A stretch of DNA of 64,000 nucleotides from Eledone cirrhosa. Taxonomy: Eukaryota. A program made the translations under genes and the position numbers. The notes beneath the pieces were generated by a model. The model ran no database searches, had not been told where the DNA came from, and worked only from the letters and a program-made list of their open reading frames with translations. The DNA lies in contig OZ024755.1 in NCBI GenBank assembly GCA_964016885.1, positions 14,074,001 through 14,138,000 of the forward strand, given 5' to 3'. This document shows positions 7,354-53,268 of the stretch, in pieces; positions within the stretch are counted from its first letter, which is position 1; each line of letters starts with the position of its first letter.

Positions 7354-7407
<54 letters not shown>

Positions 7408-7413
<6 letters not shown>

Positions 7414-7720
7414 GAAAACGAAAAATCAGTGATGCATCTGAACTCAATTTATTGTGTTACAATTGTTTCGCCGGCGGACAGCTCGAGGCGCGATCATTGT
7501 GTGGATCTGTCTGATTCTGAATCTGCGGGTCCAGAATCAGACAGATCCACACAATGATCGCGCCTCGAGCTGTCCGCCGGCGAAACAATTGTAACACAAT
7601 AAATTGAGTTCAGATGCATCACTGATTTTTCGTTTTCTATTCTATCATACTATGCTCTGTAAGAGCATAAAGTGCTGAACCGGCATACCGCCCATGGAAG
7701 CATCTTAGCTACTATCAGAC
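7408..7720 (+). mobile_element. Foldback element 1: 112-bp inverted arms + asymmetric tail
   Basis: 7408-7519 is the reverse complement of 7532-7643 (no mismatch seen), with a 12-nt loop. Tail 7644-7720. Abuts (TA)n(GA)n. Confidence 0.85.
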
Positions 7721-8534
7721 ATAATAGACGTTATAGACTTTGACAATAACTGCAACGCCTTTCGTTGCTCTGGGGTTAGTGAAGAAGGTTGTGTGGTGGT
7801 AATAATGTCACCGATGATGATCCATACATTAGTTTATGCTATTTACATTCAACTCTGCGTTGTTTAATGCCGATCACCCGTACATTTTATTCCAGTATTT
7901 ACATTGAACAAAATGCTGAATTAAATAACTACTAACCAGAACTACAAATATACCTTACTCTTGTTTTATATACCAAAGTATGTCCGTTTAGTTGTAGAGC
8001 GGGAGGAGGAGGAGGAGGAGGAGGAGGAGGAGGAGGAGGAGGAGGAGGAGGAGGAGGAGGAGGAGGAGGAGAAGAAGAAGAAGAAGAAGAAGAAGAAGAA
8101 GAAGAAGAAGAAGAAGAAGAAGAAACTTCACACAATGGCGTCGTGTGATATTTGTTCGTCTAATTTGATGCCGGCGGTAATATAATTTTAGCACATTTCG
8201 TTTCTTCTTCGGAATGCAATCATATGCAGAGTGAAACGTAGATATTTTTGCACTTTGCTAACACGAAATGCTTCTGGGAGACATGGGTGTGGTCGATTTA
8301 TTTTTCATTTAATGTACAGCTTCAATATTTACAAACTGCATCAGTTTCTATCTTCTATTTCACAAAAAGGTAGCGGACTTGATAGTAATGTTTAATTTGG
8401 TTGCATAGAGAATTATATTCAATTCTTATGCTGCTCGTAATTTCATAGTTTCTTAGATATGCATCTATTATAACTAGTGGCATAGCTTGGAAAAAATGCT
8501 TAGGATTTAGGAGAAGATACTTTCTTCTGCAAAT

Positions 8535-12817: not shown

Positions 12818-12833
12818 TATATTAAACATATAG

Positions 12834-12881
12834 AGTGCTCAACTGGCATACCGCCTATGGAAGCATCAAAGATACCATTGA

Positions 12882-19901: not shown

Positions 19902-21369
19902 CTTTGAGTCTCAGTCATTGATGTTAGTTAACTGGAAAGTTTGTTGAAATGAATATCAAGCCACTACCTGCAGCCTCAGATATTCAGGACGTATCGGAGG
20001 GTTCTTACTGTTCCCAGCAAGCATGCCTTTTGAAGCGTTCCAAAAAGCGTGGCGGGGCCATTTTTCTTTAACCATCCCTGGAAACTTTTTGAGATAGTAC
20101 CTAGTGCGCCTATGACTTCATGGCAGTTCCAAATCCTTTTTACCTCCCACTTTAAGTCCTGGTATCGGTTAATTTTCTCCCTCTCCTTCTCTTGCACTCT
20201 CGTGTCGAATGGGCAGGCCACATCCACAATCAGGCACGATCTTTTTTCCTTGTCCAAAAGCACCAGATCAGGTCTATTGTGTTACAGTTTCTTGTCCGTC
20301 CGTATACTAAAATCCCACAGCACCTTCACCTGATCGTTTACTATCACCGACTCTGGCTTATGCTCATACCACTTCTCAGAATGTGGTAAATTGTTTACTT
20401 TGCATAGGTGCCAGTGGATCACCCTGCTCATCACATCATGTCTCCAGCCCTTATAGTGAGTCTGGGCTAGGTGTTTACACTCGGATACAATGTGAGCCAC
20501 AGTCTCCTCTCTCTCTCCACAGATACTGCACAGTGGGCTAGCCTCCTCCTTGTAAATATGGTGTTTCAACCACTTTGTTTTGAGGGCCTGCTCTTGCGCA
20601 GCCATTAGTATTCCTTCTGTAGCCTTTTTAAGGTCTCCTCTTTTTAACCAGTTCCATGTCTGTGGATCTCTGAATTCAGTTTTCTCAAAGAAGGTACTAT
20701 GAAGGGATTTTTCAGGAAGGCTGCTCTTTCTCCTTGTTGTTATTTCCTCCTTGGACATCCCCTGGTCTATTGTCCTCTCCTTCAGTACAATTCTGAGCAT
20801 TGGCTCCTTACTATCAGTCACGTATTTGTGTAGGTTGTTTTTCTCCATCTGAACACAGTCCTCTATGCTGATAAGACCTCTTCCGCCTTCAGATCTCCTT
20901 AAGTAGAGTCTATCGACATCACTCCTCTTGTGGAACATATTGTAGATAGTCAATAGCTTCCTAGTTTTCCTATCCATTTCTTTTTGTTCAGCAACATTCC
21001 ATCTCAGAATTCCCGCACAGTTTCGGGTGGAGAGATGTTACATTTTTAATCCAATACCCCTGCACACCATCTGGGCCTGGTGATTTCCAGTTGGTTAGTT
21101 TTTTGGCCTGCCCCTTAAGAGTTTCAACTGTGATACTTAAATCAGTTTGTTGGTGTGCCTGTTCACTAATCTCCTTTTGTACTGTCTCAATCCCCACTAC
21201 CTGGTCATTATGTTTAACATCCTGCTCCCATATTCCTCTCCAGAATGTCTTAGTTTGTTCCGCCTCAGGGACCAAGTCGTTGCCTCTTTCTTTCCCTTCA
21301 AGCTGTCCAAACAGCATCTTCTGGTTGTTGTCAAACATGCGGTTCTGTCTACTGTCTATACTGACTGAC
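19902..21369 (-). mobile_element. Dong/R4-like retrotransposon copy A, decayed, RT core internally deleted
   Basis: 19902-21018 is highly similar to copy B 21414-22548, with a premature stop (KKL*HNR) and an 18-bp deletion (KVIPIV). 21019-21369 encodes the pre-RT region QNRMFDNNQK..KSPGPDGVQGYWIK. Flanked by (TTA)n on both sides. Confidence 0.92.
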
Positions 21370-21404
<35 letters not shown>

Positions 21405-21413
21405 GTTGTTATT

Positions 21414-23452
21414 CCTTGAATCTCAGTCATTGATGTTGGTTAACTGGAAAGTCCGTTGGATTGAATATCAAGCCACTACCTGCAGCCTCAGATATTCAGG
21501 ACGTATCGGAGGGTTCTTGCTGTTCCAAGCAAGCATGCCTTTTGAAGCGTTCCAAAAAGCGTGAAGGGGCCGATTTTCTTTAACCATCCCTGGAAACTTT
21601 TGGAGATAGTCCCCAGTGCGCCTATGACAATCGGGATCACTTTGACTTCATGGCAGTTCCAAATCCTTTTCACCTCCCACTTTAGGTCCTGGTATCGGTT
21701 AATTTTCTCCCTCTCCTTCTCTTGCACTCTCGTGTCGAACGGGCAGGCCACATCCACAATCAGGCACGATCTTTTTTCTTTGTCCACAACCACCAGGTCA
21801 GGTCTATTGTGTTCCAGTTTTTTGTCCATCTGTATCCTAAAATCCCACAGCACCTTCACCTGATTGTTCTCCATCACCGCCTCTGGCCTATGCTCATACC
21901 ATTTCTCAGAATGTGGTAAATTGTTTACTTTGCACAGGTGCCAGTGGATCACCCTGCCCATCACATCGTGTCTCCAGCCCTTATAGTGGGTCTGGGCTAG
22001 GTGTTTACACTCGGACACAATGTGAGCCACAGTCTCCTCTCTCTCTCCACAGATCCTGCACAGTGGGCTAGCCTCCTCCTTGTAGATATGGTGCTTCAAC
22101 CACTTCGTTTTGAGGGCCTGCTCCTGCGCAGCCATTAGCATTCCTTCTGTAGCCTTTTTGAGGTCTCCTCTTCTCAACCAGTTCCATGTCTGTGGATCTC
22201 TAAATTCAGTTTTCTCAAAGAAGGTACTATGAAGGGATTTTCCCTTAAGGCTGCTCTTCCTCCTTGATGTTATTTCCTCCTTGGACATCCCCTGGCCTAC
22301 TGTCCCCTCCTTCAGTACAGTTCTGAGCATTGGCTCCTTACTATAGGTCACGTATTTGTATAGGTTGTTTTTCTCCATCTGAACACAGTCCTCTATGCTG
22401 ATAAGACCTCTTCCACCCTCAGATCTCCTTAGGTAGAGTCTATCGACATCACTCCTCTTGTGGAACATGTTGTAGATAGTCAATAGCTTCCTAGTCTTCC
22501 TATCCATTTCTTTTTGTTCAGCAACATTCCATCTCAGAATTCCCGCACTGTACCTAATAATAGACACAGCTCGGGAATTTACTGCGCTTATGGCATTTCT
22601 GCTGTTCAGATGTGACTTCAATACGCTCCTTACTCTCCGAATGTATTCAGTTCTTAACAATTCCTTCATTTTTTTGTTCTTTATGCCATCAGCCTCCAGA
22701 ACGCCCAAATACTTGTATCCTTCCTCAGAGTCAATTTCCTTTATCATCTCACCTGTTGGTATCTGGATCCCGTTACTTCTGCTCAACCTACCCCTCTCCA
22801 TCACAATGACTCCACATTTACCAATACCAAACTGCATACATATATCATTGCTGAAAATACGGACAGTGTCAACAAGCACATCCAACTCCTTCTCACTTTT
22901 CCCGAAGAGCTTAAGATCGTCCATGAAGAGGAGGTGATTGATGGTAAGCTCTCCCCTTCCCAACTTGTATCCTGCTCTCACTTTTCGCAGCATAATGGTC
23001 AAGGGCATCAGGGCAAGGACAAACAACAGAGGGGACAGGCTATCTCCCTGGAAGATACCTCTCTTGATCTTCACGCTTCCCAAGGATACTCCAGTTGATG
23101 TCAACTCTGTCTCCCAGGACCCCATACTCCTGCCTAGCAACTGTCTGATGTTATCTGCCACCCTGAAGACCTCCAGGCTTTTGGTGATCCAGGAATGAGG
23201 CACCATGTCAAATGCCTTTCTGTAGTCTATCCATCCCATGGCAAGATCAGTGTGTCTCCTCCTGCAATTCCCCATTACCATCTTATCAATAAGTAACTGG
23301 TCCTTTGTACCACGTGACTTCTTTCGGCATCCTTTCTGTTCGTCCGGTAACAAGTTGTTTGTGTGGAGGTGATGGTAGATTTCCTCAGACACAATGCTCG
23401 TCAACAGTTTCCACATTACGGACAGACATGTGATAGGTCTATAGTTGGTAAC
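21414..23452 (-). mobile_element. Dong/R4-like retrotransposon copy B, 5'-truncated, inserted in (TAA)n
   Basis: ORF above plus a ~75-nt 3' UTR. Bounded by (TTA)n tracts at 21370-21413 and 23453-23518. Confidence 0.92.
21488..23452 (-). CDS. 5'-truncated but uninterrupted ORF of an R4/Dong-clade non-LTR retrotransposon (RT + CCHC knuckle + restriction-like endonuclease)
   Basis: Open from [10 protein letters not shown] to the stop codon. RT motifs: [43 protein letters not shown]. Also [31 protein letters not shown], and RLE motif [24 protein letters not shown]. Confidence 0.95.
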
Positions 23453-27298: not shown

Positions 27299-27502
27299 TT
27301 ACTTCCTGTAATATAAGGGTTAATATAATAGAAAATATTTGTCGGTGTCACTTAGCTGTAAATAGTAAGTCCGGCTTACCATGCAACAGTGGGTTCATGT
27401 CTCAAGGGCGGGGCTGAGAAAAATATTCTCCATCTTTAGGTTTTATATGCCCAACCTATATGACTATTTTTCATAGTCAAACTACGTTGATACTTAATTC
27501 AA

Positions 27503-27558
<56 letters not shown>

Positions 27559-27566
27559 ATATATAT

Positions 27567-27947
27567 AATTGGTGTTGGATGCTTAAAGTGTCCGTATGAG
27601 CACTCAATGCCCTCGTAGAGCAGAGTATGATATCACAGAAAAAAGAGAATCAGTGTTGCGACGAAAGGAATTTATTGGACATATTACAAATGTTTCTCGG
27701 GCGACCAGCTCAAGGCACGATCGATAGGGTGATCACACCTGACTCTGAAATGAACACGGTCGTCAGATACATCTCGATTCTACGAAGGAAAATCTGCTTC
27801 GTAGAATCGAGACGTATCTGACGACCGTGTTCATTTCAGAGTCAGGTGTGATAACCCTATCGATCGTGCCTTGAGCTGGTCGCCCGAGAAACATTTGTAA
27901 TATGTCCAATAAATTCCTTTCGTCGCAACACTGATTCTCTTGTTTCT

Positions 27948-27954
<7 letters not shown>
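27567..27954 (-). mobile_element. Foldback element 2: 158-bp inverted arms + asymmetric tail, homologous to element 1
   Basis: 27630-27787 pairs with 27797-27954 (3 mismatches seen), with a 9-nt loop. Tail 27567-27629. Lies between (TA)n/(TG)n tracts. Confidence 0.85.
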
Positions 27955-27994
<40 letters not shown>

Positions 27995-28239
27995 TTGAAT
28001 TAAGTATCAACGTTTAACTATGTTAAAAAGAAACAACACCAACGCAAATGTAATCTTGAAAAATTTACATTCTATTGAACTGTGTTATGTGCTCATTCAG
28101 GTAATATTTGAATGCTTCAAGTACTACGGTATTTTTTAAATACCCATTCTAATATATGTATATGTATTTACACAGTGGGAGAGATACATATACATATATA
28201 AATCAGTATAGAATACTCATTCAATTAATGTATATAACA

Positions 28240-51150: not shown

Positions 51151-52022
51151 GTGATCTGACGTACATACATACATACATATAAATACATATGTGCGTACTT
51201 GTGGGTATAAGTGTGCGTGTTTATTTACATATACATATGTGTATGCGTGTGTGTATGTGTTATATTCAATACATGACAATTTCATAAATTTGTCTTTTGT
51301 AAAGATTTTATCGTAATTTCGTATGAGTTTCTTGCAGTCTGTGTGGTAGAACAAACTTCATAAATCCAGCATCAACATTTCTAAATCTTCCTAGGCACAT
51401 CTTCAGAATGAAAACATTGAAAAATGCTCCGAAGACTCCAAACCTCGGTTTGGATGAAACAATTGTAAGCTAATAAATGGTTTGAACATATCTTTGATTC
51501 CTGGGAATTCTATATAACTGCTCTGTAGAACAACTGATGTTATTACATTGAGCTATTTATCTTACTGGTAATAAGGTAGTAATAAATTACTGTCTTTCAC
51601 TGTTTAGGGTTTAAAATATATATAACTATATAAAGTTTTAGTATATACATAACCATAAATAGTATCCTTAATACTATATATATATATATATATATATGCA
51701 TGTACCACCTACAATATGATTCATTTTAATTATTTCCATCTATTTCCTAACCTGTTGCATTCAACTTTTATAATTCAAACGCGGTAATCTTTTAGTTTCA
51801 TACAAAATTTTCTCTCCTTTTACTTTGATTATACTCTTTTTTCTTTTCTTTTTACTTTAAGCATAAAATTACCTCCCCTTATTTCCAACGGCGGTCTTTT
51901 AGTCATTTGCTCTACATTGATCTAGTTAATGTAATCATCTTCGTATGAAAGATAAGTTTATTTAAGCTGTACTTTTATGTTTATCACATTATACCGTAAT
52001 GTTCTACCTTACTTTTCTTTAA

Positions 52023-52494: not shown

Positions 52495-53268
52495 CACCAA
52501 TCCATCGCAACTGGATACTTTATATATCAACCCTGAAAGGATGAAAGGCAAAGTTAACTCAATGGTATTTGAACCCAGTGCTCAAAGAACCGGAACAAAT
52601 ACCGAGATATTTAATCCGGAGCAGTGTCTAGAAGACAAAAGAGGTATTTAAATACATAATGGAAAATAGGCGAAGTTATATTAAGAAGAGATTTAATATA
52701 GATGGATATAAAAGTATTATTTTAACGTAATGTAACTTATGAATAAATGATAAATAAAATATATATATTGAATAAACGTTTTCTATAATAAACGAAATGT
52801 TTTGTTATGAGGATCAAATGAAAATATATATGTAGATAAAACAAAAAATAAATTTGGTTGTAAAAAGGTCAAATTCCAGCCCTAAACAACTTAGAATCAT
52901 TTAAAGACGACTTATTAGTATTAATTATAATTAATAAGTTAAGAAAAAAAACATCAGTTCTATTCTAAATGATATTAGCANNNNNNNNNNNNNNNNNNNN
53001 NNNNNNNNNNNNNNNNNNNNNNNNNNNNNNNNNNNNNNNNNNNNNNNNNNNNNNNNNNNNNNNNNNNNNNNNNNNNNNNNNNNNNNNNNNNNNNNNNNNN
53101 NNNNNNNNNNNNNNNNNNNNNNNNNNNNNNNNNNNNNNNNNNNNNNNNNNNNNNNNNNNNNNNNNNNNNNNNNNNNNNNNCGTCATTCTACCAGATATAT
53201 CAATCCTTCACAAACACATACAGAAACCATTTGCAATGCACGTACACACACATATACATACATTCATG

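What the first reader, a model, noticed from the sequence alone, without database searches (positions are those of the whole stretch)
7408..7720. Foldback-plus-tail element family: long near-perfect hairpins at microsatellites
Seen: a 112-bp/112-bp inverted repeat next to (TA)n(GA)n with a one-sided tail. A second element at 27567-27954 (opposite orientation) has the same layout and homologous sequence: gatcgcgcctcgagctgtccgccggcgaaacaattgtaa..caataaatt versus gatcgtgccttgagctggtcgcccgagaaacatttgtaa..caataaatt. Both continue into tatcatact.tgctct..ag.gcat..agtgct, and both centres contain aatctgc. The two arms of each copy are near identical although the copies are clearly diverged from each other, so the inversion seems to be regenerated or homogenised per copy. 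Established: Penelope-like elements make inverted pseudo-LTR insertions and some clades favour microsatellites. Inference: a non-autonomous PLE pLTR-derived family (or an undescribed palindromic element) that seeds long dsRNA/cruciform substrates.
Basis: partly seen in the sequence, partly recalled or inferred. Interest (0 to 1): 0.72.

Follow-up and report, generated by a model that had tools for sequence, protein, structure and literature searches.

The report
Head-to-head Penelope retrotransposon stubs
Both hairpins are real, but they are the usual cut-short, head-to-head ends left by two very abundant sister families of Penelope-type jumping genes, a published layout; the less usual points are a predicted self-cutting RNA motif with a very long arm and hints that the flanking microsatellites may be written at insertion.

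Summary
Observation confirmed: 112-bp perfect arms at 7408-7643 and 158-bp arms (3 mismatches) at 27630-27954, each with a one-sided tail. They are not two diverged copies of one non-autonomous element. Each is a 5'-truncated end of its own young, high-copy family (74% alike), and long copies of both families carry a reverse transcriptase plus C-terminal GIY-YIG ORF with the Hydra-clade motifs. The tail runs on into the ORF start. The inverted arm stops at the arm/tail boundary, and no pair of 45 had two tails. Arms share subfamily alleles but otherwise drift apart (102 differences against 16 shared variants in 30 loci), so the inversion is made at insertion and is not generally homogenised afterwards. 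The shared central 'aatctgc' is coincidence. The arm holds a hammerhead-type motif with a covarying 61-63-nt helix II (2,921 genomic matches); e1's subfamily spread with a changed core (1,021). The layout is published (PMC8557442, PMC3846280), and this scan reported it, the long helix II and the Hydra link before on other DNA. Possibly new: the repeat unit beside each end mirrors the element's own last bases, but compound repeats of the same polarity are common genome-wide.

The parts
7354..7410 (.). (AT)n(AG)n compound microsatellite abutting the tail-less end of e1
   Evidence: (CT)n abuts 7 of 31 family-1 tail-less ends
7408..7519 (-). e1 inverted arm: tail-less 5'-truncated copy of the family-1 end; stops at the family's arm/tail boundary
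7520..7531 (+). e1 loop: further 5' element sequence of the tailed arm (asymmetric truncation)
7532..7643 (+). e1 direct arm; holds helix II and the 3' half of the hammerhead-type motif (7582-7593); the 5' core half is cut off by truncation
7644..7721 (+). e1 tail (about 78 nt); in full elements it continues into the ORF start; begins with a hairpin also present in family 2
   Evidence: fold z -2.18 for 7644-7715
12830..12878 (+). solo family-1 tail fragment inside an (AT)n array
27467..27506 (+). left flank of e2, inverted partner of 27991-28029 (locus-specific, not part of the element)
27506..27567 (.). (TA)n(TG)n(TA)n at the tail end of e2
27568..27629 (-). e2 tail (62 nt; 14 nt shorter than the family-2 majority, as in three other copies)
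27630..27787 (-). e2 tailed arm, with a complete hammerhead-type motif at 27685-27766
27788..27796 (+). e2 loop: further 5' element sequence of the tail-less arm
27797..27954 (+). e2 tail-less arm, with a complete hammerhead-type motif at 27818-27899 (canonical CUGACGA core, 63-nt helix II domain)
27951..27991 (.). (AT)n at the tail-less end of e2
27991..28029 (-). right flank of e2, inverted partner of 27467-27506

Best explanation
Each hairpin is two 5'-truncated copies of the end of a Penelope-like retrotransposon joined head to head in a (TA)n-rich site, likely made in one insertion when the element's enzyme copies its RNA from two start sites, one for each side of the cut chromosome. Shown: both families' ends lie 3' of an RT + C-terminal GIY-YIG ORF with Hydra-type motifs; the tail continues into the ORF start; copies end at either the arm/tail boundary or the tail end; pairs almost always join one end of each kind; arms share subfamily alleles and then drift apart. 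Inferred from PMC11167929 (in vitro, another clade): the endonuclease nicks both strands in AT-rich DNA and reverse transcription starts at two internal sites that bound the tail. Inferred: the two cDNAs stop early and independently and are joined at their truncated ends, which gives the variable, asymmetric loop. The hammerhead-type motif is predicted from sequence and covariation only; e1's subfamily likely cuts poorly or not at all.
For: Copies: 1821 and 2342 first-look candidates, 40 scored each. ORF link, family 1: arm downstream of GIY-YIG on the same strand in 17 of 20 10-kb stretches (6 picked for already showing the link; 11 of the other 14). Family 2: 8 of 30 loci anchored in the 3' UTR show both ORF upstream and arm downstream; 9 of 10 longer stretches, picked for ORF hits, are collinear ORF-UTR-arm and the tenth reads arm-tail-ORF start. 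Tail into ORF: L096, L099, L109, L140/L157. Motifs: RMRWR, SDKTG, FIQLDIxNYY, ITMGSSD, IYRDD, CNCx5CP, one Cys between GIY and YIG, KCxLCL, CRH, matching the Hydra description and alignments. Two tails in 0 of 45 pairs; partner tail-less in 23 of 23 pairs picked on a tailed copy; 12 one-tail and 1 no-tail pairs in the set not picked on tail. Loop belongs to the tailed arm in e1 and to the tail-less arm in e2, so neither arm is simply a copy of the other. Six diagnostic substitutions agree between arms in 107 of 113 comparisons (about 40 disagreements expected if independent).
Against: No intact ORF among the copies examined (all broken; not searched exhaustively). Pfam gave 0 families for 3 ORF pieces and only a sub-threshold GIY-YIG hit for a relative; PDB search 0: RT/EN identity rests on motifs and homologues. 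No tree with published Hydra proteins. The AC-number variant differs between arms in 4 of 21 pairs (5.1 expected if independent), and site 20 in 3 of 18. e1 itself has 0 arm differences but 5 of 81 tail differences from the family majority, 3 not seen in 29 other copies, which simple drift does not explain well. Copy sets were top matches, not random. The two-sided mechanism is not shown for this clade.
Confidence: 0.85

Rival explanations
1. Same element, but the inverted arm comes from self-priming (fold-back) rather than from a second priming event on the other side of the cut.
For: PMC3846280 reads palindromes at inverted junctions as self-priming (passages); small palindromes occur at several junctions here (e.g. 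L005, L008); arms share alleles.
Against: The inverted arm ends at the fixed arm/tail boundary also used by ORF-bearing copies and abuts its own microsatellite; either arm can extend further 5' than the other (e1 against e2).
Confidence: 0.25
2. Arms are kept identical after insertion by gene conversion or hairpin correction, at least when the loop is short.
For: e1: 0 of 105 arm differences against 5 of 81 tail differences; L145: 0 differences, 9 shared variants; some listed pairs share unusual variants.
Against: 30 loci: 102 arm differences, 16 shared variants in 3029 sites. 14 short-loop loci: 50 differences in 1197 sites, no lower; most of the 39 shared variants recur across loci, so are subfamily alleles; only 2 of 14 have identical arms.
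Confidence: 0.15
3. A separate non-autonomous palindromic family or MITE that moves as a hairpin unit.
For: Most copies in hand lack an ORF; inverted arms in 18 of 30 and 12 of 30 top copies.
Against: Arm length and loop differ at every locus, many copies have no inverted arm, the end is fixed only on the 3' side, and long copies run into the ORF. No target-site duplication found outside the simple repeats.
Confidence: 0.04
4. Assembly fold-back artefact.
For: e1's arms are identical; no listed short-read contig bridges the e1 loop.
Against: The left arm stops at the family's natural end; e2 and most other pairs have differing arms; contigs of two runs join e1's tail to its unique flank with 0 differences (one sample, possibly the source).
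Confidence: 0.03

Closest known systems
Insertion units of endonuclease-bearing Penelope-like elements (PMC8557442 passages and section 15; PMC3846280 passages)
   Same: Strong 5' truncation, inverted 5'-truncated copy at the 5' end, one-sided tail, microsatellite sites that hide target duplications, head-to-head orientation.
   Different: Tail about 76-80 nt against 30-40 bp in those papers.
Hydra clade of C-terminal EN+ PLEs, including Hydra-1_Obim (PMC8557442 section 11; supplement rows and alignment passages)
   Same: C-terminal GIY-YIG, DKT, CxCx5C linker, no CCHH, CxxC and CxH near the end, (TA)n sites, type I hammerhead at the 3' end with a short helix III.
   Different: RWR for RWK; unit about 4.4-4.7 kb against 1.1-3.0 kb in the published table; 0.8-3.0 kb (median 1.6 kb, 11 copies) between stop codon and end; helix II domain 61-63 nt against roughly 11-25 nt in the published Hydra rows; not the same family as Hydra-1_Obim by eye (different 5' end and ribozyme).
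Poseidon element PAc of Anolis (PMC11167929, first half of the text)
   Same: Tail lies at the pLTR-ORF junction; two fixed copy ends bound it; AT-rich targets; spread need not depend on ribozyme cutting.
   Different: Other clade; there the two starts and two-strand nicking were shown in vitro, here they are inferred.
Selaginella PLE-X hammerheads (PMC8557442 File S2)
   Same: Precedent for a long helix II region (about 53 nt in PLE-X1_sMoe).
   Different: Plant, endonuclease-less elements; no sequence comparison made.

Membership tests
EN+ Penelope-like elements | Single ORF with RT followed by GIY-YIG endonuclease, linked to this end | tested here: met
   (motifs and homologues; all copies seen are broken; Pfam silent)
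EN+ Penelope-like elements | 5' truncation, fixed 3' ends, inverted upstream copy, optional tail that continues into the ORF start | tested here: met
EN+ Penelope-like elements | Hammerhead motif in the terminal repeat | tested here: met
   family 2 canonical core and helices I-III, covarying; family 1 youngest subfamily has core CCGUCGA; cleavage untested
Hydra clade | DKT, CxCx5C linker, CCHH absent, CxxC and CxH near the EN end, C-terminal EN | tested here: met
Hydra clade | N-terminal RWK motif | tested here: inconclusive
   RMRWR in 3 copies: same position, Arg for Lys
Hydra clade | Insertion at (TA)n | tested here: met
Hydra clade | Generally under 3 kb, canonical-size hammerhead (descriptive traits) | tested here: not met
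   about 4.4-4.7 kb; helix II 61-63 nt, missed by Rfam. Hence filed as Hydra-type, not as a proven member
Hydra clade | RT phylogeny within the clade | not tested
   published proteins seen only as supplement text; compared by eye
Neptune / Nematis | CX2-5CxxC linker and CCHH with two Cys between GIY and YIG | tested here: not met
   my first recalled label 'Neptune' was wrong
Naiad / Chlamys | N-terminal endonuclease | tested here: not met
   EN is C-terminal
MITE | Fixed terminal inverted repeats, fixed length, target-site duplication | tested here: not met
Non-LTR retrozyme | Non-coding tandem units each with a hammerhead | tested here: not met
   ends belong to ORF-bearing elements; no tandem array at e1 or e2

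The most novel reading that the evidence does not exclude
These elements write their own flanking microsatellites: the RT stutters, telomerase-like, on the last template bases at each start site, giving (CA)n at family-1 tail ends (22 of 35, 0 of 31 at tail-less ends), (CT)n at tail-less ends (7 of 31, 0 of 35 at tail ends) and perhaps much of the (TA)n, so 'microsatellite targeting' is partly product, and these retroelements help make this genome repeat-rich.
Probability: 0.25. Interest if true: 0.6.

Novelty: new variant of a known kind. Interest (0 to 1): 0.3.

Why it matters
The layout itself is published and ordinary for Penelope-like elements. The value is as a large natural sample for an open question named in PMC8557442 (section 15): how the inverted structures, the tail and the microsatellite bias arise. 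The one-tail-per-pair rule, the end-specific repeat units and a subfamily of at least 1,021 motif copies with a changed ribozyme core all give direct in vitro tests. Annotators should not call these hairpins MITEs or artefacts.

Tried and rejected
Neptune label (recalled): rejected on motifs. A CUGAUGA right after the stop codon looked like the hammerhead: present in only 6 of 20 long copies in a regex scan, rejected. Rfam: no hammerhead among 86 weak matches in 3 loci. Pfam and PDB: nothing useful. Inverted target duplication as a general feature, suggested by e2's flanks: 1 of 31 other parsed loci scored high and that one was simple repeat (e2 itself was not parsed there). Short loops homogenise arms: not supported. 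Single-sequence folds of the ribozyme region were unremarkable (z -0.09 to -1.65 in 7 sequences); support is from covariation, on a structure drawn from these related sequences. Polarity of compound repeats as proof of element writing: (TC)n(TA)n 68 (most in one satellite array) against (GA)n(TA)n 0, and (CA)n(TA)n 49 against (TG)n(TA)n 25, in 40 evenly picked 10-kb stretches, mostly not beside these families, so polarity is genome-wide and not specific. Sequencing runs: no RNA holder listed; contigs cannot resolve the e1 loop. Paper searches listed no paper on these families, on a 60-nt helix II in Hydra-type elements or on PLE-written microsatellites; the library lacks most subscription journals, and Repbase/Dfam could not be checked. 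Only parts of the PMC8557442 supplement were seen; other supplements were not opened.

Full report
Observation. A hairpin scan of the window found two non-simple hairpins: 7408-7519 / 7532-7643 (112 bp, no mismatch, loop 12; e1) and 27630-27787 / 27797-27954 (158 bp, 3 mismatches, loop 9; e2). They align at 73.6% over 125 bp through arm and tail. The shared central 'aatctgc' is at non-homologous positions and is coincidence.

Two families, not one. The window lies in a 3.0-Gb genome; the closest named protein homologues are from Argonauta, so the host is likely an octopod (inference). e1's end has 1821 first-look candidates, the 40 scored at 93-96%; e2's has 2342, at 88-96%. Three of 40 evenly picked 10-kb stretches hold related ends. 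All copies share fixed 3' ends and vary at the 5' side; 18 of 30 and 12 of 30 top copies have an inverted arm upstream, of varying length and loop.

Link to a coding element. One e1 copy had a GIY-YIG piece upstream. Of 20 10-kb stretches around its relatives, 17 have the e1 arm downstream on the same strand (6 were picked for showing the link; 11 of the other 14). For e2, 8 of 30 loci anchored 1.4 kb upstream show both ORF and arm; of 10 longer stretches picked for ORF hits, 9 read ORF-UTR-arm and one reads arm-tail-ORF start. The tail continues into the ORF start in L096, L099, L109 and L140/L157. So the hairpins are short 5'-truncated ends of coding-type elements about 4.4-4.7 kb long, with 0.8-3.0 kb between stop and end (11 copies). 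All ORFs seen are broken. Pfam and PDB did not recognise them; identity rests on RT and EN motifs, homologues and the published alignments. The motifs DKT, CxCx5C, no CCHH, CxxC and CxH fit the Hydra clade (PMC8557442 section 11), not Neptune as I first recalled. Size and ribozyme differ from published Hydra rows and no tree was built, so I call them Hydra-type.

How the hairpin forms. The inverted arm stops at the arm/tail boundary, where most long copies also end. Of 45 parsed head-to-head pairs none has two tails; the partner is tail-less in 23 of 23 pairs picked on a tailed copy; the set not picked on tail gave 12 one-tail pairs and 1 no-tail pair (two loci not parsed; four no-tail calls in the last set include families whose tails my probes would miss). 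The loop belongs to the tailed arm in e1 and to the tail-less arm in e2. PMC11167929 (first half read) showed for another PLE that both strands are nicked in AT-rich DNA and extended, and that two internal start sites bound the tail. The simplest reading, inferred, is two cDNAs, one from each start, joined at their truncated ends. Fold-back self-priming (PMC3846280 passages) remains a rival.

Homogenisation. In 30 loci, arms differ at 102 of 3029 sites and share 16 variants. In 14 short-loop loci found by pattern they differ at 50 of 1197 sites; most of the 39 shared variants recur across loci; 2 of 14 have identical arms. Six diagnostic substitutions agree between arms in 107 of 113 comparisons, while an AC-number variant does not agree beyond chance. 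Arms thus start identical from one source and drift. e1 is an outlier (arms 0, tail 5 of 81 differences); local conversion or a variant source cannot be told apart.

Ribozyme motif. Rfam found none. By inspection the arm holds helix I - core - a 61-63-nt interrupted hairpin - GAAAC-AWTT-GTA - helix I'. On 20 sequences from several subfamilies 88% of cells pair, 10 of 28 pairs show two-sided changes, slid controls give 27-41%; RNAalifold finds the long helix II on its own but not helices I and III. The structure was drawn from these related sequences, so this is support, not proof. The pattern matches 2,921 places against 8 for the control, including more distant families. e2 has the complete canonical core in both arms; e1 is cut just 3' of the core, and its subfamily reads CCGUCGA at 1,021 places (control 0), with changes at two core positions, so it likely cuts poorly (inference from the canonical core; PMC11167929 found cutting dispensable in vitro). 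Published Hydra helix II domains are much shorter; a Selaginella PLE-X has about 53 nt. Opposite-strand hammerhead pairs from truncated PLEs were noted in PMC4209133 (passages).

Microsatellites. (CA)n abuts 22 of 35 family-1 tail ends and 0 of 31 tail-less ends; (CT)n 7 of 31 and 0 of 35 (Fisher p 8e-9 and 0.003); family-2 ends abut (TA)n. The units mirror the element's last bases at each end. Three of 23 two-ended loci would need a pre-existing (GA)n(CA)n junction, seen 0 times in 893 kb of loci and 0 in 400 kb of unselected DNA. Against: compound repeats of the same polarity are common genome-wide, so microhomology priming in existing repeats or later slippage can also explain much of it. 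I give element-written repeats 0.25.

Artefact. Unlikely: natural ends, differing arms at most loci, and contigs joining e1's tail to unique flank; the e1 loop itself was not bridged.

Comparison and verdict. The layout is described in PMC8557442 (passages, sections 11, 15, 20, supplement parts) and PMC3846280; very short PLE insertions by 5' truncation are reported in PMC9977147 (passages); PMC13282606 lists young Penelope families in an octopus (passages); the retrozyme preprint 10.64898/2026.07.22.740005 (first fifth) concerns tandem non-coding units, which these are not. This scan already reported the layout, long helix II and Hydra link on other DNA (unreviewed notes); a word search for the stutter idea returned nothing. 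Verdict: real, explained, a variant of a known kind; interest 0.3.

Noticed in passing
window 27467-27506 and 27991-28029: The unique flanks outside e2's microsatellites are an imperfect 40-bp inverted pair; a 22-mer from it occurs only at these two places in the genome. Not seen at other loci. Either an older AT-rich palindrome that was hit, or a one-off inverted duplication.
   Followed up: partly
window 12830-12878: Solo family-1 tail fragment inside a long (AT)n array.
   Followed up: partly
window 20285-23452, minus strand: Two long open frames (654 and 251 aa) that look like a non-LTR retrotransposon RT (recalled resemblance).
   Followed up: no
window 51456-51478: Short match to the 3' half of the ribozyme motif, without the rest; old fragment or chance.
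   Followed up: partly
L197-L236 and window: Compound repeats are polar genome-wide: (TC)n(TA)n occurs, (GA)n(TA)n was never seen.
   Followed up: partly
L222 (G000:C2:400000001-400010000): Satellite-like array of a short unit followed by variable (CT)n(AT)n, dozens of repeats.
   Followed up: no
flanks of many loci, e.g. L005, L013, L018, L149, L194, L195: Ends of other repeat families sit directly across the (TA)n tracts, suggesting nested insertion into each other's repeats.
   Followed up: no
L167-L194: More distant families share the long-helix-II motif with different helix sequences and tails.
   Followed up: partly
window 52981-53180: 200-base N gap, far from both elements.
   Followed up: no
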